The position numbers and the translations under genes were made by a program. DNA of 59,561 bases from a virus (Duplodnaviria; Caudoviricetes). A model generated the notes under the pieces. It saw only the letters and a program-made list of their open reading frames with translations. It made no database searches and had not been told where the DNA came from. Positions 3,580-18,361 of the stretch are shown here, in pieces (position 1 is the stretch's first letter; the number at the start of each line of letters is the position of its first letter). Location of the stretch: the IMG/VR virus record IMGVR_UViG_3300034160_000048, positions 1 through 59,561 of that record; one strand, given 5' to 3'.

Positions 3580-3789
3580 ATGGCCACGAACCGCATAGCG
3601 TATCTGAGCGAGGAGGACCGAGCAGCCGCCGGGGCGATCCCGGGCCTGCGCCGGTACGCCATTTACTGGGTGGACGAGGATGCCGGCCCGCAGCACTACG
3701 TGGTGCTGGCCCGCAGCCAAGGGGAAGCCCGCGAGTTGGCGATAATGGCGACAGGCAGGTCCGACCTGCTGGTGTCGAACGCCGCTTAA
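3580..3789 (+). CDS. hypothetical protein (possibly leaderless)
   Basis: ATG 3580 without SD; TAATG coupling to next gene. Confidence 0.5.
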   Translation: MATNRIAYLSEEDRAAAGAIPGLRRYAIYWVDEDAGPQHYVVLARSQGEARELAIMATGRSDLLVSNAA

Positions 3790-4187: not shown

Positions 4188-4199
4188 AGGAGAGATGAA

Positions 4200-4784: not shown

Positions 4785-4803
4785 GCCGCGTGGCGTTTGA
4801 GCA

Positions 4804-4839
4804 GGGCCGGGGGTGCAATGCCCCCGGCCCCCGTTTTCT
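4804..4839 (+). terminator. Rho-independent terminator
   Basis: GGGCCGGGGG/CCCCCGGCCC 10-bp stem followed by CCGTTTTCT. Confidence 0.7.
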
Positions 4840-4857
4840 AATAGAGGAGATAAGGGC

Positions 4858-5043
4858 ATGAAAGAGACGATCTACACGCGCGAAGGGCAGAAGATCTGGG
4901 AGAAGGGTGCCAACGATTCTTGGTATCTGCTCGAGCACTTCAAGTCGATCAACGCCGCCAAGCGCAAGTCGCGTGAGCTGCAGGGCGGTGCCGCCGGGCT
5001 GGGCTCCGGGATCCTGAGGGTGGGTAAGCCGGGAGAAGCATAA
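4858..5043 (+). CDS. hypothetical protein
   Basis: GAGGAG RBS, TAATG coupling with primase. Confidence 0.65.
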   Translation: MKETIYTREGQKIWEKGANDSWYLLEHFKSINAAKRKSRELQGGAAGLGSGILRVGKPGEA

Positions 5044-6632
5044 TGGTGACCGAGGAGCAGGTCGAACAGTTCCTGTCCCTGTTCCAGGGCAACGGGCGCT
5101 CGTTCGGCCAGTGGAACCCCAATTCCAAGTCGAAGATGCTTACGGTCAAGTCTGAGTACACGACCGAGCACGCACGGGCGCACCTTGAGGGCGAAATCGG
5201 GCTGGGCATGGTGCCCATCCGCGACGACAATAAGTGCTTGTTTGCGGCTATCGACATCGACGTCCACGGCCCTAACGGCGGGCACGTGGACCTGATCGCA
5301 ATCGAGTCGCGGATTGCCAAGGCCGCGCTCCCCTTGATCGTGTGCCGTTCCAAGAGTGGCGGCGCACACTGCTACCTGTTCTTGAAGGAGCCCGAGGACG
5401 CGAACTCAGTACGGTTGATGCTGGGCCGCTGGGCTGCGGTCGTGGGGCACCCGACCGCCGAGATTTTCCCGAAGCAGGCCAAGCTGGACCCGCCCAAAGG
5501 CAGCACGGATCGCCCCCTTGGCAACTGGATCAACCTCCCGTACTTCATGGCCGAGGGCACGGATCGGTATGCGCTCGACGGCGGTAAGGAAGTCAACTTC
5601 GACTATTTCATAGAAATGGCCGAGGGCAAGCGTGCCTCGCTGTCCGACTATAGCACGGTCGCCTCTGAGGTGGACTATTCGAAGGGCCCGCCGTGCGTGG
5701 CCGAGATGGTGAGGAACAAGGTCGAGGAGGGCAACCGGAATCTGGCCGCCTTCCAGGCCGGCATCTTCCTGAAGCGCGCCTTCCCCGAGGACTGGCGCAC
5801 CCGGCTGGAGGAGTTCAATAAGCAGGCGTTCGTGTCGCCGCTCAACGTCCGCGAGATGCGCACCATCGGCGGCAGCATTTCGAAGAAGGACTACCAGTAC
5901 AAGTGCCGCGAGGAGCCTTGCAAGACGCTCTGCAATAAGGATCTATGCAAGACGCGTGAGTTCGGCATCAGCAAGGACGACAGCACCGCGAACGAGATCC
6001 CGATATTCGACGCCGTCGAGAAGGTGATCGCAACGCCAGTGCGCTGGGTGCTGCGGATCGGAAAGGACGAGATCGAGGTGACGACCCCGCAATTGTTCAA
6101 CTACGACATGGTGCGGCAGGCCGTGGGCGAGCGGCTGCACATCGTGCTGCCCCGGATCAAGAATCAAGAGTGGGACCAGTACCTGCGCGAGATCATGAGC
6201 AAGGTCCAGGTGCGGCGGGAAACCACCATCGAGGACATGATCTTCCAGAAGCTGTGCGAGTACCTGCGCCGGGTGCGAGTGGACAAGACGCGGCCCGAGG
6301 ACGACCGGCGCGAGGACCTGCGCCGGGGCCAGCCCGCCCTGATTTCGATCACCCGCATGACCTTCATCAACGGCAAGGCCGAGGCTGCCGGGGAATGCGA
6401 GTGGTACTTCGCGTTCCGTCTGTTTGATTTCGTGGACTACCTGACCCGCAAGAAGGCGCTGCCCGTGCCAGCGCACCAGATCGCAACGTGCCTGACCCGA
6501 GTGCTGGGCGAGGACGCGAAGCGGGACAAGATGCGCGTAGGGCCGCACCGTGTCACCAACGTGTGGTGTGTGCCCGAGAAGTCGGTCGAGGAAGAGAGCG
6601 TACCTGCGAAGACCTTTGAGCAGGAGTTCTAG
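5043..6632 (+). CDS. archaeo-eukaryotic-type primase / primase-polymerase with PriCT-like region
   Basis: DIDVH (DxD), CRSKSGGAHCYLF (SxH), GNWINLPY, EGNRN and Cys cluster. Confidence 0.85.
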   Translation: MVTEEQVEQFLSLFQGNGRSFGQWNPNSKSKMLTVKSEYTTEHARAHLEGEIGLGMVPIRDDNKCLFAAIDIDVHGPNGGHVDLIAIESRIAKAALPLIVCRSKSGGAHCYLFLKEPEDANSVRLMLGRWAAVVGHPTAEIFPKQAKLDPPKGSTDRPLGNWINLPYFMAEGTDRYALDGGKEVNFDYFIEMAEGKRASLSDYSTVASEVDYSKGPPCVAEMVRNKVEEGNRNLAAFQAGIFLKRAFPEDWRTRLEEFNKQAFVSPLNVREMRTIGGSISKKDYQYKCREEPCKTLCNKDLCKTREFGISKDDSTANEIPIFDAVEKVIATPVRWVLRIGKDEIEVTTPQLFNYDMVRQAVGERLHIVLPRIKNQEWDQYLREIMSKVQVRRETTIEDMIFQKLCEYLRRVRVDKTRPEDDRREDLRRGQPALISITRMTFINGKAEAAGECEWYFAFRLFDFVDYLTRKKALPVPAHQIATCLTRVLGEDAKRDKMRVGPHRVTNVWCVPEKSVEEESVPAKTFEQEF

Positions 6633-6634
6633 CT

Positions 6635-8347
6635 ATGGCCGACGTAAGAATCGACGAAGAGAAGCGCCGCTTCATTATCAAGGGCAACGGGCGCGACGAA
6701 ATGGGCGTGCTGTTCGGCCTGCCGTCCCGCAAGTGGATGCCGAGCATGGGCGTAATCATCGCCCCATTCACGCGGCTCAACGCCAAGCACCTCGCTGACA
6801 AGGCTTTCGCCGGCAAGGTGCAGCTGACCCCCGAAGTCCGCGACTATGTCGAGGCGCTGGCGGTGGCCCCGTCCTCCAACCGGACGTTCCCGTCATGGTA
6901 CGCCTACAAGACGCAGCCATTCTTCGACCAGCGGGCGGCGCTCAACAAGGTGTACGCTAACGACTTTGGCGCGCTCTTCATGAAGATGGGCGTTGGCAAG
7001 AGCAAAGTCGCCATCGACTTCATGTCGGCCAGCTACTACGAGCGCCGGATCGAGGCCGTGGTGCTGGTGTGCCCGCTGACGATCCACGCGGTGTGGGGCG
7101 GCCCAAACGGGGAGTTGGCGACCCACAGCCCCTGCCCGGTCAAGGTGGTGCAGGTGGACTCGAGTTTCGACGCCAGCTCGATAAAGCCGAGTCAGGACTA
7201 CCTGCTGTGGCTGCTGGTCGGGGTCGAGTCGCTGTCACAGGGGCGCACGTTCGACAAGTTGATGCCGTTCCTGCGCAACTACAAGTGCGGCGGGCTGGTG
7301 GACGAGGCCAGCCGGATCAAGAACCACGCGGCAATCCGGACCAAGCGAATGTTGGAGATGCGCAACCAGTTCAAGGTCCGGTTGATCTCGACCGGCACGC
7401 CCTCGACCCGCAGCCTGATGGACCTGTACTCGCAGTTCGAATTCCTGGACCCCAACATCATCGGGGTGGGCGACTACTACGCCTTCAGGAACCGGTACGC
7501 GGTGATGGGCGGATACAAGGGTAAGGAGATCGTAGGGTACCAGTACGTCGACGAATTGATGGGGCTGATCGAGCCCTATACGTACATCTGCGAGAAGCCG
7601 AAGGACCTGCCCCCGCAGCTCTTCACCAAGCGCACAGTGAAGATGACCGACGAGCAGCGCAAGATCTACGACGACATGCGCAAGGGCAAGATCGACGGCA
7701 ACGATGTCACCAACGTGCTGACCCGGGTCCTGCGGCTGCAGCAGGTGATCGGGGGGCACTATGCCTCCGACGACACCTTTGCCGTGGACCCGATATCGGG
7801 GCGCACCAAGCGAATCGCGGGCAAGGTGCACCGCATCCTGCCGCCCGACAAGAACCCAAAGATCAAGGCATTGCTTGAGGTAGTCGAGGAAGCAGGCGAC
7901 GAGCAAATCATCGTGTGGGCCAAGTTCCTGCCCGAGGTCGAGGACATCCGGTCGGTGCTGGCGGAGATTGGGCCAGTAGCGGTGTTCACCGGGGCGACAT
8001 CGGCAGCGGAGCGAATCGAACTCAAGGACGGCTTTCAGTCAGGCAAGTATCGGTTTTTCGTCGGCAACGCCCAGACGGGCGGGCTCGGGCTCACCCTGAC
8101 GGCAGGCAGTGTGATGGTATACTACTCAAACACGCACTCGCTGGAAGACCGGCTGCAGTCCGAGGACCGGGCGCACCGCCGGGGCCAAAAGGCGGACCGG
8201 GTGCTGTATGTGGACCTGTTCATGGAGAAGTCAGTAGATAAAATCATAGAGGAAAGCATCGTGGAGAAGAAAGACTTGGACGTTTACGTCCGCGAGAAGA
8301 TCAAGGCGGCGGGCAGCATGACCAAGGCATTCGGGGATGTACTGTGA
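6635..8347 (+). CDS. SNF2-family (SF2) helicase
   Basis: MGVGKS Walker A, DEAS Walker B, TGTP, GGLGLTLT, QSEDRAHRRGQ. Confidence 0.92.
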   Translation: MADVRIDEEKRRFIIKGNGRDEMGVLFGLPSRKWMPSMGVIIAPFTRLNAKHLADKAFAGKVQLTPEVRDYVEALAVAPSSNRTFPSWYAYKTQPFFDQRAALNKVYANDFGALFMKMGVGKSKVAIDFMSASYYERRIEAVVLVCPLTIHAVWGGPNGELATHSPCPVKVVQVDSSFDASSIKPSQDYLLWLLVGVESLSQGRTFDKLMPFLRNYKCGGLVDEASRIKNHAAIRTKRMLEMRNQFKVRLISTGTPSTRSLMDLYSQFEFLDPNIIGVGDYYAFRNRYAVMGGYKGKEIVGYQYVDELMGLIEPYTYICEKPKDLPPQLFTKRTVKMTDEQRKIYDDMRKGKIDGNDVTNVLTRVLRLQQVIGGHYASDDTFAVDPISGRTKRIAGKVHRILPPDKNPKIKALLEVVEEAGDEQIIVWAKFLPEVEDIRSVLAEIGPVAVFTGATSAAERIELKDGFQSGKYRFFVGNAQTGGLGLTLTAGSVMVYYSNTHSLEDRLQSEDRAHRRGQKADRVLYVDLFMEKSVDKIIEESIVEKKDLDVYVREKIKAAGSMTKAFGDVL

Positions 8348-8874
8348 GTGGCTTTATCGACCCCCGCTGCCCCCGCTGCGGCGGAAAAATTGGGGGGCCG
8401 CGAGAATTACATGAGCACCAAGACGGGTGCCCGCTGGACACGCACCCCGGGCAAAAATTCTATGGCAAGAAGCCTCCCGATTGCCCGCATTGTGGCGGCC
8501 CCTACCACGGAGTAGGGCTGGTTTGCCCCGTGGTCAAGGCTGTCCGAACTCTACCCCCGAAGGACGACGCGGACAAGCCGCAGATCTGGCGCGGGGCCCT
8601 CGATTACTTCCCGCTCGCCCTGATCGCCGTGGCCCGGGTCTCGGAGGTCGGTACGCGTGCCCCCGGGCACGAGTGGGGCGGCTGGCGTGACGTCCCGGAC
8701 GGCGCGAGGCGCTATACGGAGGCCATGGTGCGGCATCTGATGGCGGAGTCCACCGAGGGCCCGTACGACCTCACCGACAACCAACTCCACGCCGCTAAGG
8801 TTGCCTGGGGAGCGTTGTGTCGGCTCGAGCTGATGCTACGTGAGAAACGGGTGGACGCGGCCCCCGGCGCGTGA
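8344..8874 (+). CDS. dATP/dGTP diphosphohydrolase (DUF5664-like) with N-terminal Cys/His zinc-finger repeats
   Basis: KDDADKP...FPLALIAVARVSEVG...W...RYTEAMVRHL...LHAAKVAWGAL; CPxCGG x2. Confidence 0.75.
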   Translation: MSGFIDPRCPRCGGKIGGPRELHEHQDGCPLDTHPGQKFYGKKPPDCPHCGGPYHGVGLVCPVVKAVRTLPPKDDADKPQIWRGALDYFPLALIAVARVSEVGTRAPGHEWGGWRDVPDGARRYTEAMVRHLMAESTEGPYDLTDNQLHAAKVAWGALCRLELMLREKRVDAAPGA

Positions 8875-8880
8875 TACACT
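8852..8880 (+). promoter_or_regulatory. sigma70-type promoter, extended -10
   Basis: TGGACG-17 nt-TACACT with TGn. Confidence 0.55.
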
Positions 8881-8901
8881 AGAGGTCTAGAGGATACACA
8901 T

Positions 8902-9252
8902 ATGAGCACGGTCGAGCAGGAAATCGGGCACAAGCCCCGGGTCTACATCATCGAGCAGCAGGCTTTCGACTACAGCCCTGCTACGGTGTTTGGCATCCCA
9001 TTCTTCATGAACTTCCAGCCACTGGCCCCTGCGGGGGGCGGAGCGCCGGAGTCGTGGAACCAGATCTCGATGCACCAAGCCCGCAAGGAGTTGGCCGAGT
9101 ACGTGCCGGGAATGGACTACATCGTCCCTACCGGCAAGCCTGCCAAGATGCTCGCCGTGGGCATGCTGCTGGCGGAGAAGGGCAAGCGGCACAGGGTCCT
9201 CGGCTGGGACGCGAGGACGCAGCGCTACTTGGAATTCATCATCAACGTCTGA
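8902..9252 (+). CDS. hypothetical phage protein
   Basis: GAGGA RBS, 116-aa ORF in operon. Confidence 0.75.
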   Translation: MSTVEQEIGHKPRVYIIEQQAFDYSPATVFGIPFFMNFQPLAPAGGGAPESWNQISMHQARKELAEYVPGMDYIVPTGKPAKMLAVGMLLAEKGKRHRVLGWDARTQRYLEFIINV

Positions 9253-9266
9253 TAGAGGAGAACAGG

Positions 9267-9782
9267 ATGAATGAAAAGGCGAATGGCTATGGCCTCAAGG
9301 TCGGGCCGAAGCAGGTGGAAGCCGCACTGGCGACCCTCGAGGCTTACGTGGCGGAGCGGGCGGCGCTCGTCACCGACAAGGCCAAGATGGACTTGCTGGG
9401 ATCGATCAAGCTGATGGATGCCCTGTACAAGTTCAAGGACGAGGTCGCGGACCGGGTCAAGTCGCCCGCCGAGAAGGCTTATGACACACTCCGATTTGTC
9501 GTCGTCCCCGAGTGGATGGACGAAAAGGGCGTGCCGTCAATCACGGTCGAGGGCGTGGGGCGCTGCAACGTCACCGACGATGTGCAGGTGAAGGTCAACG
9601 CCAAGGGCGGGCTGTTCGAGTGGTTGACCAAGAACGAGTTCGAAGACATGATTCAGCAGAACGTCAACGCGCAAACGTTGGCGGCCTTTGTTCGCAAGCG
9701 GCTGAAGGCCGGGCTCCCTCTCCCTGACGCCGACGTCATGGAAGTGAAGCCCGTGACGCGGGCCGCAATTACACGTTCCTAA
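9267..9782 (+). CDS. conserved phage replication-module protein
   Basis: GAGGAG RBS before ATG 9267; VPEWMDEKGVxSITV and VNAQTLAAFVR pattern, located next to the SSB-like gene. Confidence 0.7.
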   Translation: MNEKANGYGLKVGPKQVEAALATLEAYVAERAALVTDKAKMDLLGSIKLMDALYKFKDEVADRVKSPAEKAYDTLRFVVVPEWMDEKGVPSITVEGVGRCNVTDDVQVKVNAKGGLFEWLTKNEFEDMIQQNVNAQTLAAFVRKRLKAGLPLPDADVMEVKPVTRAAITRS

Positions 9783-9798
9783 CAGGAGATCGACGATA

Positions 9799-10599
9799 AT
9801 GGCAACACAGCAGGCAAAGAAACCGCAGGCCCAGGCAGTTAAGCCCTCGGCCGCGAAGACGCCTACGCAGGCAGTGGCGGCGACGAAGCCGACCGCAGTA
9901 GCGACGGTGCCCGACTACATCAAGCAGGGGGCAGGCCGTGGTAATGAGAATGTGGAGATGTCGGATTACGTCATCCCCCGCATCGAGGTCGTGCAGGCGC
10001 TCTCCCCGTGCCTCAAATCCAACGACCCCTCGTACATCGAGGACGCGTCGCAGGGCGACCTCTACAACTCCGTCACCCGCGAGCTGTACGGCAACGCCGT
10101 TACGGTCATTCCGGTCGTCTTCCGCAAGGAATACCTCGTGTGGAAGGACCGCACCAAGGGCGGCGGGTTCCGGGGCGCGTACCCTTCGATGCAGGAGGCG
10201 CAGGCCCGGATCGACGGTGAGAAGGACGGAGCGGATCTCGTCACCAACGAAACCGCGCAGCAGTTCGTGCTTATCGTCCGCGAGGACGGCACGATGGACG
10301 AAGCCGTCGTGTCGATGTCCAAGACCAAGCTGAAGATCAGCCGTCAGTGGAACTCGCTGATCCGGATCAACGGCAACGACCGCTTCTCGCGTACCTACGT
10401 GTTGTCTTCGACCGAGGACAACAATGAGAAGGGCGACTTCTACAACTTCGCGGTGGCCAACGCCGGCTTCCCGACCGTTGAGCAGTACAAGCGGGCCGAG
10501 TCGCTGTTCGAAGCTATCGCTTCGGGCGCGCGTCGCGTGGTGGCGGACACCAGTGACGGTGACCTTGACGGGCAGGCGCAGGCCCGGGGCGAATACTGA
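9799..10599 (+). CDS. putative single-stranded DNA-binding protein
   Basis: GNENV..SD..IPRIxVVQALSP signature, acidic C-terminus, position between helicases. Confidence 0.65.
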   Translation: MATQQAKKPQAQAVKPSAAKTPTQAVAATKPTAVATVPDYIKQGAGRGNENVEMSDYVIPRIEVVQALSPCLKSNDPSYIEDASQGDLYNSVTRELYGNAVTVIPVVFRKEYLVWKDRTKGGGFRGAYPSMQEAQARIDGEKDGADLVTNETAQQFVLIVREDGTMDEAVVSMSKTKLKISRQWNSLIRINGNDRFSRTYVLSSTEDNNEKGDFYNFAVANAGFPTVEQYKRAESLFEAIASGARRVVADTSDGDLDGQAQARGEY

Positions 10600-10600
10600 G

Positions 10601-10750
10601 GGATCGTCAAAACCGCGCCGTGTTGCGGTAGAGATCGTGCTGCGATCGGCACAACGGCAGCAAGCGGCCCTCAGATAGGGTGAGTTGAAGTCACAGCCCC
10701 GCCGCAAGGCAACGGACCGTCACCCGGGTCCGGGGGCTCTGGCGCTGCAA
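10601..10750 (+). ncRNA. candidate structured RNA or ssDNA element
   Basis: Multiple nested hairpins, a GCAA tetraloop and a possible pseudoknot in a ~160-nt intergenic gap. Confidence 0.4.
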
Positions 10751-10762
10751 TAGAGGATTGGA

Positions 10763-12163
10763 ATGAAGACCACAGTATACTACGGCCCTCCGGGAACCGG
10801 CAAAACCCGCACACTCATGGAGCGTCTGACAGCGCATATCCAAGGGGGCGGCCGGAGGGCCCTTTTTTGCAGCCATACCAAGGCGGCTGCTCGCACCGCG
10901 TTTGAGCGGTGGGGCGGGGCCAGTGCGGGTGTAGACATCCAGACCCTGCACTCTTTCTGCTTTAAGGCCCTCAAGTTGACCCGGTCCCAGACGGTGGACG
11001 AGGCCAAGCTTGAAATCCTTCTTCATGAATTCGGGCTCGACATCGATGACGGCGGGGAGGGCAAGGCGTATGTTGAAGTTATGTCGGTGGCTCGAGCGAC
11101 TGGCGACGGCATGCTCGAAACGTACGACCGGCTTGGGCAGCCTGGAACTCGCTCACACTTCCAAGCCTTCGTGGCTACCTACGACCGCTGGAAGACCCAG
11201 TTCGGCTACCGGGACTTTAGCGACATGCTGGACGATTATTCCCGGAGCAACGATGCTGGGGGCTACGACCTGCTCGTGGTCGACGAAGCGCAAGACCTGA
11301 CCCCGCTCCATTGGAAGGCCCTGAGCCGCTTCATGGAGTTGAACCCTGACGCCGACGTCGTAATCGGCGGGGACGACGACCAGTGCATCTATAGTTATGC
11401 CGGGGCCGACGCCCACGGCATGGACACATTCATAAACCGCTACGGCGGCAACATCCGGACGCTGTCGCAGTCCTACCGTATTCCCCGCGTGGTGCACACC
11501 CTCGCCAAGTCGATCATCACCCGGGTCGAGAAGCGGGTGAAGAAGGTGTACAAGCCCACGAAGGAGCAGGGGACTTTCATGCTGTGGCCCGACCCCAGCT
11601 ACATGAAGCTGGACCCGGCCCGGGACACCCTTGTCCTGTTTAGTGACAAATTCGGCCGTCGCGACATCGAGGACCAGTTGCGCGATTCCGCCACACCCTA
11701 TGAGGCGGTGTCGGGGCTGCCGGGCCCGCTGCAGACGCGCGCCGGGCGGGCAATCCGGATGGCACACACCATAAAGGAGTGGACCGATGAAGATAAGGCT
11801 CTATTTAAAAAAGGACTCTCAGGGAGGGGTGTTGATTTGGCCGGATCAGTCGGTGTGGAAGCGGTCGCAGAAAAGATCCGCGCAGGATACTTCGACTACA
11901 CTACCGCCCGGATCGACGATGTGGACTATTTGGCCCGGGTCGACCACAGCCAGCCATGCAATATTCGGATTGCCACCATCCATGGGGCGAAAGGGATGGA
12001 GGCAGACGATGTCCATTTGTTTGACACCCGCTCCCAAGCCGCAATCTCCGAGTCCTTGGTCAACCCCGACCATGCGCACCGACTGGCATACGTCGCCGTG
12101 ACCCGGCCCCGCCACAACCTCTACATTTACGAGGGTGTCAACGGCTACGGTGGCTGGCAATGA
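10763..12163 (+). CDS. UvrD/Rep-like SF1 helicase
   Basis: GPPGTGKT, VDEAQD, GDDDQCIY, LSQSYRIP, TIHGAKGME, YVAVTR. Confidence 0.93.
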   Translation: MKTTVYYGPPGTGKTRTLMERLTAHIQGGGRRALFCSHTKAAARTAFERWGGASAGVDIQTLHSFCFKALKLTRSQTVDEAKLEILLHEFGLDIDDGGEGKAYVEVMSVARATGDGMLETYDRLGQPGTRSHFQAFVATYDRWKTQFGYRDFSDMLDDYSRSNDAGGYDLLVVDEAQDLTPLHWKALSRFMELNPDADVVIGGDDDQCIYSYAGADAHGMDTFINRYGGNIRTLSQSYRIPRVVHTLAKSIITRVEKRVKKVYKPTKEQGTFMLWPDPSYMKLDPARDTLVLFSDKFGRRDIEDQLRDSATPYEAVSGLPGPLQTRAGRAIRMAHTIKEWTDEDKALFKKGLSGRGVDLAGSVGVEAVAEKIRAGYFDYTTARIDDVDYLARVDHSQPCNIRIATIHGAKGMEADDVHLFDTRSQAAISESLVNPDHAHRLAYVAVTRPRHNLYIYEGVNGYGGWQ

Positions 12164-13995
12164 TGCCCTCGGTCGACTACCTGCTGTCGCTGCCCCGGCT
12201 GGCGCTCGACACGGAAACTACCGGCCTCGACTGGCAGCGCGACCGTGTATTTGGAATCGCGATGGCGTGGCGCGACACCGGGAAGATCGAGAGTATCTAC
12301 ATTGATCTGCGGGAAGGGCAGTGGCTGCGCTGGGCCCGGGACGTCCTGCCCCGGCTGCGGCATATCGTCAATCACAACATCAAGTTCGACTGGCACATGC
12401 TGCGGTCGATGAAGATCGAGCTGGCCCCCGGCGCGTGTGACTGCACGATGATCCGGGAGACGCTGATCGACGAGAACCAGTTCGAATACAACCTCGAGCG
12501 GGTGAGCCAGAAGTACCTGCACACCGGCAAGGTGAACATCTGGCAGGAACTTGCTGACCTATTCGGGGGAAAGCCGACCAAGGAGGCGCAGATAGGGAAC
12601 CTGTCGAAGGCCCCATCGGCACTCGTATCCAAGTACGCAACAGGGGACGCGGAGAATGCGCTACGCATCTGGGAACATCAGGAAGCACTACTTACAGCTG
12701 ACGATCTCGGAGTGGTTGCTGCCATGGAACGTAAGCTACTCCAGGTGGTTGCGGAGATGGAGCGGGGTGGCGTACGTGTTGATATGGACGCGGCTGAGCG
12801 AGCAGTATCCCTTATCGATGCGAACATGGCGACGGCTCAGAAAGCCTTGGATAGGGCCGCCGGTCGTCCCATCAACGCAAACTCCCCAGCGCAGGTTAAA
12901 GCGCTGCTCGGTGTGCATTGTGACGACAAAGGTGACTGGCGAACTCGTGACGGGTTACTTCTGGAGCCGACCGAGTCGGGCAAGAGCGGTGCGCTGCGTA
13001 CCGAAAAGCTCTATCAGTGCACCCTTCCTGAGGCGGCGCTTATCGCAGAACTACGAGGCGGCATTAAGGCGCGCGATGTCTTCCTGAAGAAGTACATCCT
13101 CCAGATGTCGGTCAATGGGTACGTGCACGCGAGCATCAACCAGACCAAGACCGAGGCGGGGGACGGCACCTACACCGGGCGGTTCTCGATCACGGAGCCC
13201 GCGCTGCAGCAGATCCACAAGCGCAATAAGAAGATGGCCGCAATCGTGCGGGCCTGTTTCCTGCCCGACGAGGGCTGCGAGTGGGGCTGCTGGGACTGGT
13301 CACAGAAGGACTTCCGGATCTTCGCGCACTATGTGAACGACCCCAAGATCAATTCCATCTACGAGAAAAACCCGCTCGCGGACTTTCACCGGGTGACCGC
13401 CGATTTGACCGGCCTGCCCCGGGACCCGGACCAGAAAACGGGCGGCGCGAACGCCAAGCAGATGAACCTTGGCCTCGTGTTCGGCATGGCCGCAGGGCGC
13501 ATGGCCAAGGAGATGAACCTGCCATTCACAACCGACGAGAGTGGGTACCTCAAGGCGGGCCCCGAGGCGGAGGCCCTGTTTGCCAAGTACCACAACAACA
13601 TCCCGGGCGTGCAGCAGCTCAAGAAGGCCGTGGGGTCCGTGGCCCGGAGCAGGGGACATATTGTAACCCAGCTTGGGCGGCGGCTTCACTTCCCGAACGG
13701 TGAGGGGGCATACAAGGCCGCCGGCATCCTGTTCCAGGCACAGGCGGCGGAGTCGATGAAGATCAAGATGTGCGAGATTTACGACATCATGCAGCAGCAG
13801 AAGGGGAGCCGGTTCCTGCTCCCGGTGCACGACGAGTTTGACTTTGCGCTGGGGCCCAACCGGGCCCCGACGTTTGACGCTGATATGACTGCGCTTTTGC
13901 AGAGGTTTGACGGGGACATCACCCCGCTCAAGTATCGAATTCCGATCCGCGCCGATTATGGCACGGGTCCTAACTGGTGGGAGGCGAGCAAGTGA
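12160..13995 (+). CDS. dpoZ: family A DNA polymerase with 3'-5' exonuclease, DpoZ-like
   Basis: DTETTG/HNIKFD exo motifs, TGRFS, motif A DWSQKDFR, motif B AKQMNLGLVFG, motif C VHDE; directly upstream of purZ. Confidence 0.85.
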   Translation: MMPSVDYLLSLPRLALDTETTGLDWQRDRVFGIAMAWRDTGKIESIYIDLREGQWLRWARDVLPRLRHIVNHNIKFDWHMLRSMKIELAPGACDCTMIRETLIDENQFEYNLERVSQKYLHTGKVNIWQELADLFGGKPTKEAQIGNLSKAPSALVSKYATGDAENALRIWEHQEALLTADDLGVVAAMERKLLQVVAEMERGGVRVDMDAAERAVSLIDANMATAQKALDRAAGRPINANSPAQVKALLGVHCDDKGDWRTRDGLLLEPTESGKSGALRTEKLYQCTLPEAALIAELRGGIKARDVFLKKYILQMSVNGYVHASINQTKTEAGDGTYTGRFSITEPALQQIHKRNKKMAAIVRACFLPDEGCEWGCWDWSQKDFRIFAHYVNDPKINSIYEKNPLADFHRVTADLTGLPRDPDQKTGGANAKQMNLGLVFGMAAGRMAKEMNLPFTTDESGYLKAGPEAEALFAKYHNNIPGVQQLKKAVGSVARSRGHIVTQLGRRLHFPNGEGAYKAAGILFQAQAAESMKIKMCEIYDIMQQQKGSRFLLPVHDEFDFALGPNRAPTFDADMTALLQRFDGDITPLKYRIPIRADYGTGPNWWEASK

Positions 13996-15098
13996 GAAGC
14001 AAGACAATTGTAACGGTACAGGACCTGCAGTTCGGCAGCACAGGAAAAGGGCTGATTGCGGGCAGTGTTGCGTGCGCATGGGAACCGGACACTGTAGTTA
14101 CGGCGTGGGGCCCGAACGCGGGGCACACTTTCCGCGACGGCGAGCTTAACATGATCACGACCATGTTGGCCAGCTCCTCGGTCGCCCCCAGCGTGCAGAA
14201 CATCCTCATTGGCCCCGGGTCGGTGGTCAACCTCGAGAATCTAGCGGCCGAGATCCGCGCCGTCGGGCCGTTGCTGTCGGGCAAGTGGTTGATTCTACAC
14301 CCACAGGCGGCGATCCTGCGGCCCGAGCACGCAATGGCGGAGAAGGCGTTGATCACCATCGGGTCCACCATGAAGGGGACTGCCGAAGCCGCGATCTCCA
14401 AGATGCGGCGCGGGACCAGTGCCACGGCGAAGCAGCTACAGCTCATGGTGCGCGAGCACTTGGAAGGCGTGCTCGATGAATTCGACGTCATGTTCAGCAT
14501 GGAAGAAAAGATGTATGACAAGTCCATCGACGTCAGCAGCCGTATGATTGTCGAGGGCGCGCAGGGCTTCTCGCTGGGCATCCACGGGCCGTTCTACCCT
14601 TATGGCACCAGCCGGGACATCAGCACCGCGCAGCTGTTTGCGGATTGCCGGATCCCGTTCCCGACGCAGGGCGAGAGGGTGGTCAATATTGGGTGCTGCC
14701 GCACTTACCCTATCCGCGTAGCTAACCGGTTCAACGACAAGGGCGAGATGGTCGGGACCAGCGGCGGGCACTACCCCGACCAAGACGAGCTTACATGGGA
14801 AGCCATCGGTCGCCCGGTGGAACTCACCACAGTTACGAAGCTCCCGCGCCGCGTGTTCAGCTTTTCAAATCTGCAGGTGGCGGAGGCGGCCCGGGTGATG
14901 GGCACGACCGAAATCGCGCTGACCTTCTGCGACTACATCGCGCCGAGGCCGGGCGAGGATCAGGGGTTGCCAAGGGCCGTCACGGCCTTCTCGGAGCGCA
15001 TCCGTCGAGCGACCGGCATCATGCCCTCCCTGTTCAGCTTCGGGCCCGACCGCGCCGACGTCATCGCCCGGACGGGCTCCGTGGCGCTGGGGGACTGA
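13992..15098 (+). CDS. purZ: PurZ, 2-amino-deoxyadenylosuccinate synthase (PurA paralogue)
   Basis: QFGSTGKG (Ser in place of PurA Asp), PNAGHT, EGAQGFSL, YPYGTSRD, PIRV, ELTTVTKLPRR; GTG 13992 overlaps pol stop. Confidence 0.93.
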   Translation: MRSKTIVTVQDLQFGSTGKGLIAGSVACAWEPDTVVTAWGPNAGHTFRDGELNMITTMLASSSVAPSVQNILIGPGSVVNLENLAAEIRAVGPLLSGKWLILHPQAAILRPEHAMAEKALITIGSTMKGTAEAAISKMRRGTSATAKQLQLMVREHLEGVLDEFDVMFSMEEKMYDKSIDVSSRMIVEGAQGFSLGIHGPFYPYGTSRDISTAQLFADCRIPFPTQGERVVNIGCCRTYPIRVANRFNDKGEMVGTSGGHYPDQDELTWEAIGRPVELTTVTKLPRRVFSFSNLQVAEAARVMGTTEIALTFCDYIAPRPGEDQGLPRAVTAFSERIRRATGIMPSLFSFGPDRADVIARTGSVALGD

Positions 15099-15099
15099 C

Positions 15100-15510
15100 A
15101 TGACGAGATTCTACGATCTTGACTGGAACAACATGCGCCGGGTGCAGCAGGCGATCACCGATTGGGCGGACTCGCAGTTCCCGGGCCGCACCGCCCAGCA
15201 CGCCCTGTCGAAACTGGTTCTCGAGGAAGTCCCGGAGCTGCTGCAGCACAAGAAGTTGCACGGCACCAAGGGGATCGACACGGAACTGGCCGACTGCTTC
15301 GTGTTGCTCATGGATCTGGCGTCGCTGTGGGGCGTGGATCTGCCCGCCGCGATCCGGGCCAAGATGATCATCAACGAGAAACGCGTCTGGAAGGTTGACC
15401 CCGACACAGGGCTCATGAACCACACCGACGGGGTGAAACCGCTGACGCGGGAAGAAATCCAGGAAGCGATTGTGCTGATCGAAGAAACTGAAGGAGGTTC
15501 CCATGACTAG
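15100..15510 (+). CDS. mazZ: MazG-like dNTP pyrophosphohydrolase (MazZ/DUF550-like)
   Basis: WADSQFP...LEEVPEL...ELADCFVLLMD...AKMIINEKRVW; between purZ and datZ. Confidence 0.8.
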   Translation: MTRFYDLDWNNMRRVQQAITDWADSQFPGRTAQHALSKLVLEEVPELLQHKKLHGTKGIDTELADCFVLLMDLASLWGVDLPAAIRAKMIINEKRVWKVDPDTGLMNHTDGVKPLTREEIQEAIVLIEETEGGSHD

Positions 15511-16099
15511 TCCCGAACTTAAGGCCCTGCTCAAACTGTCCACCGTCCCCCGCTGGGCGATTGTGGACATGAGCCGGCAGCAATCCGTGGCTGAGCACAG
15601 CTACCGGGTCTGGGCTATCGCCGCCGAGCTGTACAAGGTGTTGTACCCGGCGCCCCACAATCAGGTGGACGAAATGGCCACGGCCCGCTGGGCGCTGGTG
15701 CACGACGTCGAGGAGGCTTTCATGGGCGATACGCCCTCGACAGCCAAGGAAATCCTCGAAAGGGTGGCCCCCGGCGTGGGGCAGAAGTGGGTTGATGCGA
15801 TAATCCAAAAGGAGGTTCCAGGGGTCGCAGCGTTTGCCCGTGGCGTGAAAGGTTCGCCCCCGGGCCACGTGGTCAAGATCGCGGACATTCTGGAGGCCAT
15901 CCTGTTCACCTTTGACTACGCGGTGAACGCCGGGGAAAAGGTCCGGGTGCTCAATTTCCTGTACGCGCAGTTGGGCGCGGCCTGGAGAAAGGCGCAGGCC
16001 GACATGATTACAGCCGACTGGCTAGGGGCGGTCGATTTCCGAAACCAGCTGCTTGCGGCGGAGCCCGCCGTGGCTCGCATTGAGGTGGACTACCCATGA
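15503..16099 (+). CDS. datZ: HD-domain dATP triphosphohydrolase DatZ
   Basis: VPRW...QSVAEHSYRV...HDVEEAFMGD.P...VKIADILEA (YfbR-like HD fold) inside the purZ cluster. Confidence 0.85.
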   Translation: MTSPELKALLKLSTVPRWAIVDMSRQQSVAEHSYRVWAIAAELYKVLYPAPHNQVDEMATARWALVHDVEEAFMGDTPSTAKEILERVAPGVGQKWVDAIIQKEVPGVAAFARGVKGSPPGHVVKIADILEAILFTFDYAVNAGEKVRVLNFLYAQLGAAWRKAQADMITADWLGAVDFRNQLLAAEPAVARIEVDYP

Positions 16100-16368
16100 T
16101 CGACCTGTCCAAAGTGCCGCCAAAGTTGATTCACAACCTAATCAACGAGATGGCGGAGTTCAGGGCCTCCGGATTTAGGCAACCGATGCGTATTGACTAT
16201 GCCCTTGAAATGGTGCTGGCCATAGCGGAGCCCGAATTTTTTACCGAGTGGCGGCCTGCGCCCCGTTTTCACCCAACAGCCCGCCTTGAGAAAACGCCCG
16301 ATCTTTCCTCCACGGAAGACGTTTGGGGTTTCCTAAGGTCGAGCGGAGTTTATGACTCTCAGGTATGA
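16096..16368 (+). CDS. hypothetical protein
   Basis: GAGGTGG RBS, ATGA coupling; overlaps convergent gene by 128 bp. Confidence 0.5.
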   Translation: MIDLSKVPPKLIHNLINEMAEFRASGFRQPMRIDYALEMVLAIAEPEFFTEWRPAPRFHPTARLEKTPDLSSTEDVWGFLRSSGVYDSQV

Positions 16369-18361
16369 CTTCGTCCACGCCCTTAAGCTTGTCGAGCATC
16401 GCCTGCAGGAACTCCTCGTGGTCGAGTCCGAAGTAAGGTGAGTTAGGGTGCGGGTCAAGATTGTAGCTGGGCTCGAAAGGGGCCCCGGCCTCGTCGATGA
16501 TATGAGTAGGTGTTTTGACAATGTCGTCCAGTAAGAATCCCAAAGCCCCCGACCGGTGCCGGCCATTGTGACCCACCACGCGCACATCAGTGGGCAAGTC
16601 ACCGAGGCTGGGATCACCGAAGGACATGTGGAGGAAGGGTGGTTCACGGAGCCCCCTGCCGTGCGCCCCCATACTCGTAGCGAGGTCGAGCATGCTCGTC
16701 ATGTCTTCGGATGGCGAATCAAGAACTTGAAATGGCCGTTTTTGCTTGAGCCACGGACCAAGACCGTCGTTGTTGTTGATGTTGTGATACGTGACGCCTT
16801 GCTGCTTGGGGAAAGGGTTCGCTAGGTCGTTAAACTCGCCCTGGTCAAGCAGCGCTATTGGATATTCGGTGCCCGCCAGCTTGTACAGACCCTCGTCGGA
16901 TAGGTATTTACGAAACAACGGCTCTTCATCAAGCAGCCGTACCCCCCGGTCCGCGAACCTCTTACCTTTTTCATTCTTGATACGCAGCAAGGTGCCGACC
17001 TTGCCGCCGTTGGCCTTCTTGGCAAAGGTGCCCCGGGCAGAGCCAAGTAACTGTTCGTACGAGTCGGGGATGGTGTAGCCCGAAGAGGGTAGTAGCAATT
17101 CGTCCTGTCCCGACAGCAAATTAGGAAGCGCCCGCATGAGTTTGTCGCGGTTGATCGTGAAGGACACACCGCCCGGAACCTCCGTAGGCCGGTGCTTCGC
17201 CAAGTACGGGGCGCTCTGGGCAAAGTCGTCGGCCTGCCCCCGGGAGGTGCTGGCCGAGGACAACGCGTGCGGGCCAATCGTTACGTTGCCCCGGTCGGGG
17301 AACAGCTTGTACAGGTCCTCGACCGTATCTCCGTAGTAAATCCCCCGGTGCAGCGGGGTGGAGGGCTTGACATCGATAGCGTATTTCGAAAAAAGCTTGT
17401 TAAGGTCGTTGTCGCTAACGTGGTCTACCCACTCTGACATGTCGGCCAGTCTCTCGAAGTCATCCGTTCCCACGGCCGGGTACACAAACCCGGGGTGATC
17501 AATGGCGTCGAGATACGAGGAGCTGTTATCGCCGTAGTCGCCTTTGAACCCCTCGTCGTCCAACATTTTCAGGACGTTCTTGAGGCCGCGGACCTTTGAT
17601 ATTTTCCCGCCGCCGGCCATCGCCGGGACATGGGGATTAAGCCGCTGAGGGTCGCTGGCTGAGTAACGGCGGACTAATTCCCGGAAACTAAGTTCGTCGT
17701 CGGGCGAGGGGGCACGAGGCTCCTCCCCGTCGCCCAGCGTTCCGAGCGCGCCGCCTGCAACGGCCCCTGTGAGGTAGCTAGAGGCTTTGCCGTCCACAGT
17801 CGGGCCCAGGTATTCCGCAATTGCCCGCACGGGGTTGGCCTTGATCAACTCCGACGCAGTCTTCACGCCCTTAGCCGGGAGCAGCGGGATCTGGCCCAGC
17901 ATCGTCCCGCCCGCTTCCTCCAGGTTTTGCAGGAACCCCTCGGGCTCCGACAACCCGGCGTCCGCATTGATCTTTGCGCCGAGGGCCTCCTGCCGCGCAG
18001 ACGCTTCCTCCGCGAACTGCGGGGTGTCCATGGTGCCAACCCTTTCGGCAAGGCCCGGGGACACGTAGCGGTCGGCCAACTCCACGAGCCCGTTCGACAG
18101 GGCGGGTACCAGCGCCGGCAGCGCCAGCGCCTCATTGATTACGCCGGGCAACCGCATCCGGGGCCCCCGGTCGCTGTCCTCAATTGCGAAAGGCGCGGCA
18201 ACATTGCCTTCCTTGTCGAGCGACAGAAGCTGTGACATCAGGGCGGAAGCTACGCGGGCCCGGTCCTCGCTCCACGACGGGATTCCTGCGGCCCGAGCCA
18301 GATTTGCGCCCCACGCGGCAATCGAGGTGGGGTCACCCTTTGGCTTACTATCGTCCGGCAC
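16241..18361 (-). CDS. multidomain internal virion/ejection protein with putative ADP-ribosyltransferase and ParB/Srx-like domains
   Basis: GTG 18361 with GGAGG RBS; LHRG...SSASTS...QDELLLP; VVGHNGRHR; domains bounded by MAGGG, KANGG, FSQGG. Confidence 0.7.
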   Translation of the reverse strand: MPDDSKPKGDPTSIAAWGANLARAAGIPSWSEDRARVASALMSQLLSLDKEGNVAAPFAIEDSDRGPRMRLPGVINEALALPALVPALSNGLVELADRYVSPGLAERVGTMDTPQFAEEASARQEALGAKINADAGLSEPEGFLQNLEEAGGTMLGQIPLLPAKGVKTASELIKANPVRAIAEYLGPTVDGKASSYLTGAVAGGALGTLGDGEEPRAPSPDDELSFRELVRRYSASDPQRLNPHVPAMAGGGKISKVRGLKNVLKMLDDEGFKGDYGDNSSSYLDAIDHPGFVYPAVGTDDFERLADMSEWVDHVSDNDLNKLFSKYAIDVKPSTPLHRGIYYGDTVEDLYKLFPDRGNVTIGPHALSSASTSRGQADDFAQSAPYLAKHRPTEVPGGVSFTINRDKLMRALPNLLSGQDELLLPSSGYTIPDSYEQLLGSARGTFAKKANGGKVGTLLRIKNEKGKRFADRGVRLLDEEPLFRKYLSDEGLYKLAGTEYPIALLDQGEFNDLANPFPKQQGVTYHNINNNDGLGPWLKQKRPFQVLDSPSEDMTSMLDLATSMGAHGRGLREPPFLHMSFGDPSLGDLPTDVRVVGHNGRHRSGALGFLLDDIVKTPTHIIDEAGAPFEPSYNLDPHPNSPYFGLDHEEFLQAMLDKLKGVDEVIPESHKLRSTLGNPKRLPWRKDRAFSQGGLLGENGAQAATR

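What the first reader, a model, noticed from the sequence alone, without database searches (positions are those of the whole stretch)
14910..14940. PurZ with a GTP-type specificity loop (T-F-C-D instead of N-F-x-N)
Seen: the C-terminal nucleotide-binding loop reads ALTFCDY (14922-14936). From my recollection of characterised enzymes, ATP-using PurZ has N-F-x-N here (phiVC8 LNFCNY, S-2L LNFANY), while GTP-using PurA has T-K-x-D and the GTP-using PurZ0 variant keeps the Asp. The rest of the protein (TVVTAWxxNAGHT, PIRVANR, TTVTKLPRR) looks like canonical PurZ. Inference: this is a hybrid, intermediate or revertant enzyme that may use GTP/dGTP as phosphate donor, i.e. a variant Z pathway paired with DpoZ, DatZ and MazZ.
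Basis: partly seen in the sequence, partly recalled or inferred. Interest (0 to 1): 0.8.

Follow-up and report, generated by a model that had tools for sequence, protein, structure and literature searches.

The report
PurZ with guanine-type donor pocket
This phage enzyme, which starts synthesis of the unusual DNA base 2-aminoadenine, carries the base-reading residues of GTP-using relatives instead of those of the tested ATP-using phage enzymes, and it belongs to a sizeable class that nobody appears to have assayed.

Summary
The purZ gene (13977/13992-15098, +) encodes A-L-T-F-C-D-Y at 14916-14936. This is the loop that reads the base of the phosphate donor in solved PurZ structures.

All 15 cultured PurZ-clade phages I read have N-F-x-N/Q there. 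GTP-using relatives (E. coli PurA, P. horikoshii PurA, six PurZ0 phages) have T/S-x-x-D.

The enzyme is otherwise a PurZ. It falls inside the PurZ clade and carries the Ser P-loop, PIRVANR and TTVTK. Its neighbours are DpoZ, a DUF550-type MazZ and DatZ, with no dUTPase or NDT gene.

The variant is not unique. All 119 nearest metagenomic homologues have the Asp, as do 35 of 154 PurZ-clade rows. It changes together with four other positions (26, 314, 316, 354). At least nine switches are forced on supported branches.

A basal position for the window's clade is rejected (AU p about 0.0003), so it looks like a revertant rather than an intermediate.

GTP or dGTP use is inferred, not shown (about 55%). 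I found no description of this class in the papers I could search. Three key papers (Tong 2023, Zhou 2021, Sleiman 2021) were not held. The scan had noted the Z-cassette on this window, but not this pocket class.

The parts
13977..15098 (+). purZ. The longest ORF is 373 aa from GTG 13977. The more likely start is GTG 13992 (368 aa), which has GGAGG at 13980-13984 seven bases upstream and overlaps the dpoZ stop as GTGA (13992-13995). The collection's own gene call (P0001, 315 aa, from M59) would lack the P-loop.
   Evidence: sequence; phiVC8 PurZ 6fm1 E 1.5e-60, S-2L PurZ 7odx 5.7e-53, PurZ0 7vf6 1.6e-17; phrog_1211, 8.9e-65; NCBIfam NF038379 is the best hit at 264.8 bits, under its 300-bit cut-off; P0001.
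14034..14051 (+). P-loop G20-S21-T22-G23-K24-G25. Ser replaces the catalytic Asp13 of PurA, which is the PurZ hallmark.
   Evidence: S21 is invariant in 119 of 119 nearest homologues. E. coli PurA reads GDEGKG.
14922..14936 (+). Donor-base loop T316-F317-C318-D319-Y320. It aligns with S-2L N305-F306-A307-Q308-Y, phiVC8 N294-F295-C296-N297-Y298 and E. coli PurA T330-K331-L332-D333.
   Evidence: PMC8342488 passages.
15036..15047 (+). Second wall of the base pocket, S354-F355-G356-P357. It aligns with S-2L G333-F334-G335-P336 and E. coli S414-T415-G416-P417.
   Evidence: In the PurZ clade this position is G in 109 of 119 N/Q-class rows and is not G in 30 of 35 D-class rows.
12160..13995 (+). Family A DNA polymerase with a 3'-5' exonuclease domain (DpoZ-type position in the cassette).
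   Evidence: PF00476 4.9e-45, PF01612 2.3e-09; phrog_17.
15100..15510 (+). MazZ-like pyrophosphohydrolase, 136 aa, of the DUF550 / MazZ-2 type.
   Evidence: phrog_801 'dATP / dGTP pyrophosphohydrolase', 4.7e-09; no Pfam or NCBIfam hit. Orthologues in related loci hit both this ORF and the SH-Ab 15497 DUF550 protein.
15503..16099 (+). DatZ-like HD-domain dATP triphosphohydrolase.
   Evidence: PF12917 1.4e-13, PF13023; phrog_7076 'dATP triphosphohydrolase', 2.5e-19.
10763..12163 (+). UvrD/PcrA-like helicase, upstream of dpoZ as in SH-Ab 15497.
   Evidence: PF00580 4.4e-18; same gene order in SH-Ab 15497.
8344..8874 (+). Stand-alone DUF5664 domain protein (PF18909, the N-terminal domain of the dATP/dGTP diphosphohydrolase). 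Here it is a separate gene rather than fused to DUF550.
   Evidence: PF18909, 8e-14.

Best explanation
The gene encodes a working PurZ: it condenses dGMP with aspartate as the first step toward dZTP for a 2-aminoadenine genome. Its pocket for the base of the phosphate-donor nucleotide is in the guanine-reading state of PurA and PurZ0, not in the adenine-reading state of the tested PurZ enzymes.

Proposed mechanism (inferred). The carboxylate of D319 accepts hydrogen bonds from N1-H and the 2-NH2 of guanine, as the corresponding Asp333 does in E. coli PurA. T316 and S354 replace the Asn and Gly that frame adenine N6 in S-2L and phiVC8. F317, Y320 and P357 keep stacking on the purine. The enzyme should therefore prefer GTP or dGTP, or at least accept it as well as ATP.

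Shown: the residues, their alignment to the solved pockets, their coordinated variation, and the gene context. Inferred: the donor itself.

In evolution this state looks regained within ATP-type PurZ by single-base codon changes (Asn AAY to Thr ACY, Asn AAY to Asp GAY), and the same flip has happened many times.
For: 1. Pocket identity. [quoted passage not shown] The window has T, D and S at the aligned places.

2. GTP users carry T/S-x-x-D: E. coli PurA TKLD, P. horikoshii PurA TMLD and 6 of 6 PurZ0 phages read. The title of Kang et al. 1994, seen in a reference list, says that D333N turns E. coli PurA from GTP to XTP.

3. All 15 of 15 cultured PurZ-clade phages read have N-F-x-N/Q.

4. The state is selected: D319 is kept in 119 of 119 nearest homologues and S/T354 in 111 of 119.

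5. The pocket changes as a unit. Of 154 PurZ-clade rows, 109 are N-N/Q-G, 29 are T/S-D-nonG, and only 8 carry one change without the other (T..N 3, N..D 2, G..N 1, M..D 1...). On independent pairs across starred branches, D goes with non-Gly in 5.7 pairs against 0.1 and with T/S in 6.4 against 0.1 (median p 0.031 each). The columns sharing most information with D319 are 316, 314, 26 (the residue after the P-loop) and 354.

6. Base composition does not explain it: D-class loci have 45-62% G+C and N-class loci 28-70%.
Against: - No member of the class has been assayed, so donor use is untested.
- An Asp carboxylate and a Thr hydroxyl could also accept hydrogen bonds from adenine N6, so ATP use is not excluded.
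- F317 and Y320, described as stabilising the adenine ring of ATP (preprint 10.1101/2025.10.22.683976, section 8), are kept.
- The window's residue 26 is Leu, the N-class state, unlike 118 of its 119 nearest relatives.
- Ser at the 354 position is not general among GTP users: P. horikoshii PurA has Lys and Archimedes PurZ0 has Gly.
- The accessory genes are the same in both classes, so context gives no independent sign of a different donor.
- Frequent flipping could also mean that the change costs little.
- A fourth PurZ said to have been characterised (from a Sinobacteraceae bacterium) could not be read. If it is D-type and works with ATP, the inference falls.
Confidence: 0.55

Rival explanations
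1. Still an ATP/dATP enzyme. T-F-x-D is a tolerated alternative way of holding adenine: the Asp and Thr oxygens accept hydrogen bonds from N6 just as the Asn and Gln oxygens do. On this reading the class differs in sequence, not in donor.
For: S-2L binds adenine N6 through side-chain oxygens, which Asp and Thr also offer. The stacking residues F317, Y320 and P357 are kept. The accessory set is identical in D-class and N-class loci: all 5 D-class IMG/VR loci have DpoZ, a DUF550-like MazZ, DatZ and a helicase. The state flips often (17 changes on the best tree) and mixed states exist. L26 in the window is the N-class state.
Against: The change is coordinated over three to five pocket positions and is rarely partial. 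The resulting state is exactly that of GTP-using relatives. The aligned Asp is the guanine determinant in PurA (title of Kang 1994; AdSS is listed under the N-K-x-D guanine pattern in PMC11594714). An Asp facing N1 of adenine has no hydrogen to accept.
Confidence: 0.25
2. Relaxed, dual-donor enzyme. Removing the Asn/Gln amide that clashes with the guanine 2-NH2 opens the pocket to both purine triphosphates without excluding ATP.
For: PMC8342488 names the amide of Q308/N297 as the element that conflicts with G. Replacing it with Asp removes that conflict. The purine-stacking residues are unchanged.
Against: Nothing direct. The covariation at 314, 26 and 354 suggests a remodelled pocket rather than merely a loosened one.
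Confidence: 0.15
3. Surviving evolutionary intermediate. The window's clade branched off before PurZ switched to ATP and simply kept the ancestral PurA/PurZ0 pocket.
For: All outgroups (PurZ0 and the cellular Ser-type PurA-like enzymes) carry the Asp. The ancestral-looking P-loop GSE[GA]KG is enriched in the D class (13 of 35 rows against 4 of 119; 25 of 119 near relatives).
Against: The clade is nested inside N-type PurZ behind branches with 97, 97, 97, 91 and 98% SH-aLRT. Two-state reconstruction gives P(D)=0.00 along the backbone, with D appearing only at the roughly 11-row clade, and Fitch parsimony agrees. Trees that force the D group (18 rows) or the window's 10-row clade to the base are worse by 209 and 195 log-likelihood units (AU p 0.0004 and 0.0003). 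Caveats: the constrained trees come from fast searches under LG+F+G4.
Confidence: 0.1

Closest known systems
PurZ (succino-amino-deoxyadenylate synthase) of Vibrio phage phiVC8 (PDB 6FM1/6FKO/6TNH), cyanophage S-2L (7ODX), Acinetobacter phage SH-Ab 15497 and Salmonella phage PMBT28
   Same: It is the best sequence match (E 1.5e-60 and 5.7e-53) and lies in the same clade (99% SH-aLRT). It shares the Ser P-loop, the TTVTK loop, PIRVANR with the insertion that follows it, and the F and Y stacking residues. It sits in the same cassette of helicase, PolA, PurZ, DUF550-type MazZ and DatZ.
   Different: The residues that hydrogen-bond the donor base differ: T316, D319 and S354 stand in place of N, N/Q and G. 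Identity to any cultured phage PurZ is only 38-46%. The score falls under the NCBIfam PurZ cut-off (264.8 against 300 bits).
PurZ0 of actinophages (Gordonia phage Archimedes, PDB 7VF6; Frizzle, Korra, Sucha, Galactica, Olihed), reported to use GTP (Tong et al. 2023; recalled, paper not held)
   Same: The Asp and the Thr/Ser of the base loop are kept in 6 of 6 PurZ0 phages read. It also has the Ser P-loop.
   Different: It is a far weaker match (E 1.6e-17, 27-32% identity) and a separate clade (100% support). PurZ0 reads S/T-M/F-x-D-Q/T with P-loop GSEAKG and lacks the ANR insertion. PurZ0 phages carry DutZ and DmtZ (PMC12884076, passages), whereas the window has no dUTPase or NDT match.
Adenylosuccinate synthetase PurA (E. 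coli, PDB 1ADE and others; P. horikoshii 2D7U/5K7X)
   Same: Same fold family (PF00709). It shares the T-x-x-D donor loop, and with E. coli the S-x-G-P-D-R stretch.
   Different: PurA has the catalytic Asp in the P-loop (GDEGKG) and acts on IMP. The window has Ser and the PurZ-type deoxyguanylate features.
Cellular Ser-type PurA-like enzymes on bacterial and archaeal chromosomes (Sphingomonas, Terriglobus, Dehalococcoidia, Sorangium, Cenarchaeum and others)
   Same: They carry the same L-T-F-x-D-Y loop and a Ser P-loop (GSEGKG).
   Different: Identity is 28-35%. They lie outside the PurZ clade. They read I-S-T-[GR]-F instead of S-x-G-P, and their function is untested. Earlier notes of this scan place some in non-phage cassettes.

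Membership tests
PurZ (ATP/dATP-dependent succino-amino-deoxyadenylate synthase) | Ser in place of the catalytic Asp13 of PurA in the P-loop | tested here: met
   G20-S21-T22-G23-K24-G25; S21 is kept in 119 of 119 near homologues.
PurZ (ATP/dATP-dependent succino-amino-deoxyadenylate synthase) | Placement inside the PurZ clade, apart from PurZ0 and cellular relatives | tested here: met
   The PurZ clade has 99% support in FastTree (188 rows) and in IQ-TREE LG+C20 (110 rows). The window lies in a 5-row clade (97-99%).
PurZ (ATP/dATP-dependent succino-amino-deoxyadenylate synthase) | Conserved aspartate-loop tip TTVT and the PIRVANR region with the insertion near the 2'-position of the substrate | tested here: met
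   TTVTK at 284 and PIRVANR at 245; the alignment shows the insertion shared with S-2L-like PurZ and absent from PurZ0.
PurZ (ATP/dATP-dependent succino-amino-deoxyadenylate synthase) | Adenine-reading donor loop N-F-x-N/Q with G-x-G-P | tested here: not met
   The window has T-F-C-D and S-F-G-P. All 15 cultured PurZ-clade phages read have N-F-x-N/Q.
PurZ (ATP/dATP-dependent succino-amino-deoxyadenylate synthase) | Score over the curated cut-off of NCBIfam NF038379 | tested here: not met
   264.8 bits against a cut-off of 300. It is still much the best family; the next is 112.9 bits. The model ends before the donor loop.
PurZ (ATP/dATP-dependent succino-amino-deoxyadenylate synthase) | Z-cluster neighbours (DatZ, MazZ, usually DpoZ) | tested here: met
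   PolA at 12160-13995, DUF550-like MazZ at 15100-15510 and an HD-domain DatZ at 15503-16099.
PurZ (ATP/dATP-dependent succino-amino-deoxyadenylate synthase) | Catalysis: dGMP + Asp + ATP/dATP gives dSMP | not testable with these tools
   This needs an enzyme assay.
PurZ0 (GTP-type) | Membership of the PurZ0 clade, with P-loop GSEAKG and loop S/T-M/F-x-D-Q/T | tested here: not met
   PurZ0 is a separate clade (100% support). The window has GSTGKG and T-F-C-D-Y. Only the T and the D are shared.
PurZ0 (GTP-type) | DutZ (dUTPase-like) and DmtZ (NDT-like) accessory genes | tested here: not met
   There is no PF00692 or PF05014 match in the 59,561-base record, which CheckV rates 100% complete.
PurZ0 (GTP-type) | Use of GTP as phosphate donor | not testable with these tools
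   Inferred from the pocket only.

The most novel reading that the evidence does not exclude
Donor choice in PurZ is an evolutionary toggle. Z-genome phages have flipped repeatedly (nine or more times) between an adenine-reading pocket (N-F-x-N/Q, G) and a guanine-reading pocket (T/S-F-x-D, S/T) through two or three single-base codon changes. A whole uncultured class, including this phage, would then run the Z pathway on GTP or dGTP while keeping the DatZ/MazZ/DpoZ set. That would break the current equation of PurZ with ATP and PurZ0 with GTP. It would also suggest that the host's nucleotide pools, or defences that deplete nucleotides, select the donor.
Probability: 0.4. Interest if true: 0.75.

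Novelty: new variant of a known kind. Interest (0 to 1): 0.6.

Why it matters
In the papers I could read, the Z-genome pathway is described as two lineages: PurZ0 with one accessory gene set and PurZ with another. ATP/dATP use is presented as an adaptation of PurZ (preprint 10.1101/2025.10.22.683976, introduction; PMC12884076).

A PurZ-clade class with a guanine-type pocket would show that donor specificity is not fixed by lineage. It makes up 35 of the 154 PurZ-clade rows examined (a set ranked by likeness to this window), has arisen repeatedly, and is absent from the 15 cultured phages read.

It also offers natural pairs of near relatives that differ at two or three residues (for example P0148 and P0141, or P0122 and P0151), which are ready-made material for specificity studies. 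And it is relevant to engineering dZTP supply in cells, where draining ATP or GTP pools has different costs.

If the class still uses ATP, the finding is a sequence variant of modest interest.

Tried and rejected
- **Base composition.** I tested G+C content as the cause of Asn giving way to Thr and Asp, and rejected it: D-class loci have 45-62% G+C and N-class loci 28-70%.
- **Exchange of a C-terminal module between phages.** Not supported. A tree of the C-terminal columns alone needs 26 changes of state and the N-terminal tree needs 17. The C-terminal tree has only 53 columns, so this test is weak.
- **Basal 'intermediate' position.** Rejected by the AU test, with the caveats given in the report.
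- **Coupling of the P-loop Glu (position 22) to the Asp state.** Independent pairs show none: 1.1 pairs go the same way, 0 the other way and 5.8 show no difference. The raw enrichment is left unexplained.
- **Difference in accessory genes between the classes.** None seen. All 5 D-class and most N-class IMG/VR loci have DpoZ, a DUF550-like MazZ and DatZ. No locus matched the short MazG of Ochrobactrum phage OH.
- **Scan of viral contigs with the single protein.** It found nothing, so I repeated it with alignment A2.
- **Names for four NCBI-sourced relatives.** None were on record.
- **Literature.** Searches for PurZ0/PurZ, Z-genome/PurZ/GTP/archaeal PurA, PurZ + Sinobacteraceae (no papers) and PurZ + GTP (9 papers) found no description of a T-F-x-D PurZ. 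Tong 2023, Zhou 2021 and Sleiman 2021 are not held and supplements are closed. The supplementary alignments of PMC8342488 and PMC12884076 may show such sequences.
- **Not run.** I did not run structure prediction, fold search or complex prediction, because none of them reports ligand preference.
Full report
**What is there.** The window is a whole IMG/VR virus record of 59,561 bases. It is classed as linear, and CheckV rates it 100% complete. Its G+C content is 61%.

The plus strand from about 300 to 16,400 carries the replication genes:
- an AEP-type primase (5043-6632)
- an SNF2 helicase (6635-8347)
- a stand-alone DUF5664 protein (8344-8874, PF18909)
- a Pam3 gp34-like protein (9799-10599)
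- a UvrD-like helicase (10763-12163)
- a family A polymerase with proofreading exonuclease (12160-13995)
- the adenylosuccinate-synthetase homologue in question (13977-15098)
- a 136-aa pyrophosphohydrolase of the DUF550/MazZ-2 kind (15100-15510)
- an HD-domain DatZ-like hydrolase (15503-16099)

These assignments rest. The minus strand carries the structural genes and a terminase. This is the helicase-DpoZ-PurZ-MazZ-DatZ order of Acinetobacter phage SH-Ab 15497.

The ORF opens at GTG 13977. A better start is GTG 13992. It is preceded by GGAGG at a spacing of seven bases and overlaps the polymerase stop as GTGA. The N-termini of the homologues align there. The gene call on record (P0001, 315 aa) starts at Met59 and would cut off the P-loop. 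I use the numbering of the 373-aa ORF throughout: T316, F317, C318, D319, Y320, and further on S354, F355, G356, P357.

**What the loop is.** The protein's best solved relatives are:

| Solved relative | E-value |
|---|---|
| phiVC8 PurZ | 1.5e-60 |
| S-2L PurZ | 5.7e-53 |
| PurZ0 of Gordonia phage Archimedes (7VF6) | 1.6e-17 |
| P. horikoshii PurA | 9e-16 |

HMMER aligns T-F-C-D-Y with N-F-C-N-Y of phiVC8 and N-F-A-Q-Y of S-2L.

The S-2L structure paper (PMC8342488, passages read) states the following. The base of dATP stacks on F306 and P336. The side-chain oxygens of N305 and Q308 and the backbone of G335 hydrogen-bond adenine's 6-amino group. [quoted passage not shown] My residue counts reproduce that numbering.

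The window's T316 and D319 replace the two residues that read adenine. S354 replaces the Gly two places before the Gly-Pro of the other pocket wall.

**What relatives have there.**
- E. coli PurA reads L-T-K-L-D-V and I-S-T-G-P-D-R. In the usual numbering without Met1 these are T330, K331, L332, D333 and S414 to P417.
- P. horikoshii PurA reads T-M-L-D and K-T-G-P.
- Six of six PurZ0 phages read have S/T-M/F-x-D.
- That D333 sets guanine specificity in PurA rests on the title of Kang et al. 1994, seen in a reference list, and on PMC11594714, which lists adenylosuccinate synthetase under the N-K-x-D guanine pattern (figure legend and table).
- That PurZ0 uses GTP I recall from Tong et al. 2023, which is not held.
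- A preprint's introduction says the move to ATP/dATP came with PurZ. PMC12884076 says the two subgroups differ in ATP/GTP preference, though it names them in the opposite order.
- All 15 cultured PurZ-clade phages whose gene I read have F-L-N-F-x-N/Q-Y: SH-Ab 15497, PSA28, PMBT28, phiVC8, S-2L, BCSR129, vB_OspP_OH, BUCT555, Kokobel2, VLCpiS6a, ZP6, K300, Bm1, phage 53 and Barton. INPHARED holds more PurZ records that I did not read (203 matching records in all, most of them PurZ0 actinophages).

**It is a class, not a one-off.**
- Of the 119 nearest proteins in the 5.8-billion-protein collection (45-57% identical, all from metagenomes or MAGs), D319, F317 and Y320 are each kept in 119. T316 is kept in 114 (N 3, S 2). 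S354 is kept in 103 (T 8, G 6, A 1, H 1).
- In the library of 50%-identity representatives the query has 224 relatives at E up to 1e-30, and I received the best 150.
- For the trees I kept 127 of those 150 (lengths 300-479 aa; 23 fragments or fusions dropped). I added 15 phage reference rows, E. coli PurA and 45 of the 80 genome-contig loci (35 dropped by hand, mostly near-duplicates). That gave 188 rows.
- In the 154-row PurZ clade the states at positions 316/319/354 are: N-N-G 101, N-Q-G 8, T/S-D-nonG 29, T/S-D-G 3, N-N-S 4, N-D-G 2, and ten other rows.
- So 35 of 154 rows carry the Asp. That share is inflated, because the list is ranked by likeness to this window.
- Among the 80 IMG/VR loci most like the window, 5 are D-type.

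**The pocket changes as a unit.**
- On the FastTree of 188 rows, independent pairs across well-supported branches (8 pairs) show D going with a non-Gly at 354 in 5.7 pairs against 0.1. D goes with T/S at 316 in 6.4 pairs against 0.1. The median p is 0.031 for each.
- A scan of all columns puts 316, 314 (Phe in 105 of 119 N-class rows; Ala, Tyr, Val or Ile in the D class), 26 (the residue after G-K-G; Leu in 93 N-class rows) and 354 at the top for information shared with 319.
- The window itself has the D-class state at 314, 316, 319 and 354 but Leu at 26. In this it differs from 118 of its 119 near relatives.

**Where it sits in the tree.**
- IQ-TREE (LG+C20 PMSF, short search, SH-aLRT) was run on 110 rows: all 35 D rows, 58 of 119 N rows and 17 of 34 outgroup rows.
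- It separates the PurZ clade (93 rows, 99%) from PurZ0 plus the cellular Ser-type enzymes.
- With the two motif stretches removed from the alignment, the D state still needs 17 changes on the best tree. At least 9 of them are forced by starred branches.
- The window lies in a 5-row D clade (97%) inside a 13-row clade (95%). That clade sits deep within N-type lineages behind branches of 97, 97, 97, 91 and 98%.
- A two-state likelihood reconstruction gives P(Asp)=0.00 for the PurZ ancestor and along the backbone. P(Asp) rises to 0.89 only at the 11-row clade. Fitch parsimony agrees.
- The deepest PurZ branches are long and might be drawn to the outgroup, so I tested the alternative directly. 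I used 78 rows, 331 columns and LG+F+G4.
- Trees that force all other PurZ rows to be one clade, leaving the 18-row D group or the window's 10-row clade at the base, are worse by 209 and 195 log-likelihood units (AU p 0.0004 and 0.0003).
- Limits of that test: the constrained trees come from fast searches, the model is simple, and the treekit AU test under the mixture model did not finish.
- On this evidence the window's pocket is a reversion within ATP-type PurZ, not a surviving intermediate.
- One thing fits badly with that. The ancestral-looking P-loop G-S-E-[GA]-K-G is enriched in the D class (13 of 35 rows against 4 of 119).

**Rivals to the switch reading.** G+C content does not separate the classes. 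A tree of the C-terminal part alone does not gather the D rows (26 changes against 17 for the N-terminal part), though with 53 columns it has little power. Asn to Thr and Asn to Asp are each one base change (AAY to ACY or GAY), so the path is short. The rarity of half-changed pockets argues that the two full states are the fit ones.

**How it most likely works.** The enzyme has every feature needed for the PurZ reaction:
- the Ser P-loop
- N-A-G-H-T with the catalytic His
- G-S-T-M-K-G
- E-G-A-Q-G
- T-S-R-D
- P-I-R-V-A-N-R with the insertion that follows it
- T-T-V-T-K-L-P-R-R

All the invariant columns of alignments A1 and A2 are present. I take it to make N6-succino-2-amino-2'-deoxyadenylate from dGMP and aspartate.

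For the donor I infer GTP or dGTP. Asp319 would take the two hydrogen bonds from N1-H and N2-H2 of guanine, Thr316 and Ser354 would line the O6 side, and Phe317, Tyr320 and Pro357 would stack. I put this at about 55%, a relaxed dual-donor enzyme at about 15% and unchanged ATP use at about 25%.

The neighbours are the PurZ set, not the PurZ0 set. DatZ and a DUF550-type MazZ are present, and no dUTPase or nucleoside deoxyribosyltransferase match exists in the record. All five D-type IMG/VR loci have the same set. So if the donor differs, the rest of the pathway does not.

**Membership.** It is a member of the PurZ clade by tree, hallmark residues and context. It fails two tests: the adenine-type loop, and the curated NCBIfam cut-off (264.8 against 300 bits). 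It is not a PurZ0. I file it as a new variant within PurZ.

**Novelty.** In the searchable library no paper that mentions PurZ with GTP describes such a class. Three central papers and all supplements could not be read, so prior description cannot be excluded. In particular, the motif of a fourth PurZ said to have been characterised (from a Sinobacteraceae bacterium) is unknown to me.

Earlier notes of this scan recorded the Z-cassette on this window and many cellular PurZ-like genes. None recorded this pocket class.

Noticed in passing
window 8344-8874 (+): A stand-alone 176-aa protein matches PF18909 (DUF5664), the N-terminal domain of the dATP/dGTP diphosphohydrolase (8e-14). In SH-Ab 15497-like phages this domain is fused to DUF550. 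Here it lies 6 kb upstream of the short DUF550-like MazZ (15100-15510).
   Followed up: no
L047-L097 (for example L049, L052, L054, L070, L078), match at about 3001-4010 of each locus: Many bacterial and archaeal chromosomes (Sphingomonas, Terriglobus, Dehalococcoidia, Sorangium, Cenarchaeum and others) encode short PurA-like proteins. They have a Ser P-loop (GSEGKG), the same L-T-F-x-D-Y loop as the window, and I-S-T-[GR]-F in place of S-x-G-P. Some ORFs run on upstream, as if fused to another domain. They branch outside PurZ.
   Followed up: partly
window 13977-14151; protein P0001: The gene call on record for this contig starts purZ at Met59 (315 aa) and so omits the P-loop. The homologues and a GGAGG-N7-GTG site at 13980-13994 point to a start at 13992, overlapping the dpoZ stop as GTGA.
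   Followed up: yes
PurZ position 22 (window 14040-14042) across the PurZ clade: Glu at the P-loop position after Ser (G-S-E-[GA]-K-G, as in PurZ0 and the cellular relatives) occurs in 13 of 35 Asp-type rows but in only 4 of 119 Asn/Gln-type rows. It is concentrated in two clades near the window. This sits awkwardly with a simple reversion history.
   Followed up: partly
window 5043-6632 (+): The primase candidate's only Pfam match is PF22548 (AEP-TOTE, the archaeo-eukaryotic primase domain named after a conflict system), at 2.9e-12.
   Followed up: no
PMC12884076, section 24: [quoted passage not shown] That is the reverse of what its own introduction and the cited Tong et al. title imply, and is probably a slip in the text.
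   Followed up: no
proteins P0205, P0206, P0166; L026:406-1578: Half-changed pockets exist in a few PurZ-clade sequences: I-N-F-C-D-Y, I-N-F-T-D-Y, L-T-F-C-N-Y and L-T-F-M-N-Y. These are possible natural intermediates between the two states.
   Followed up: no
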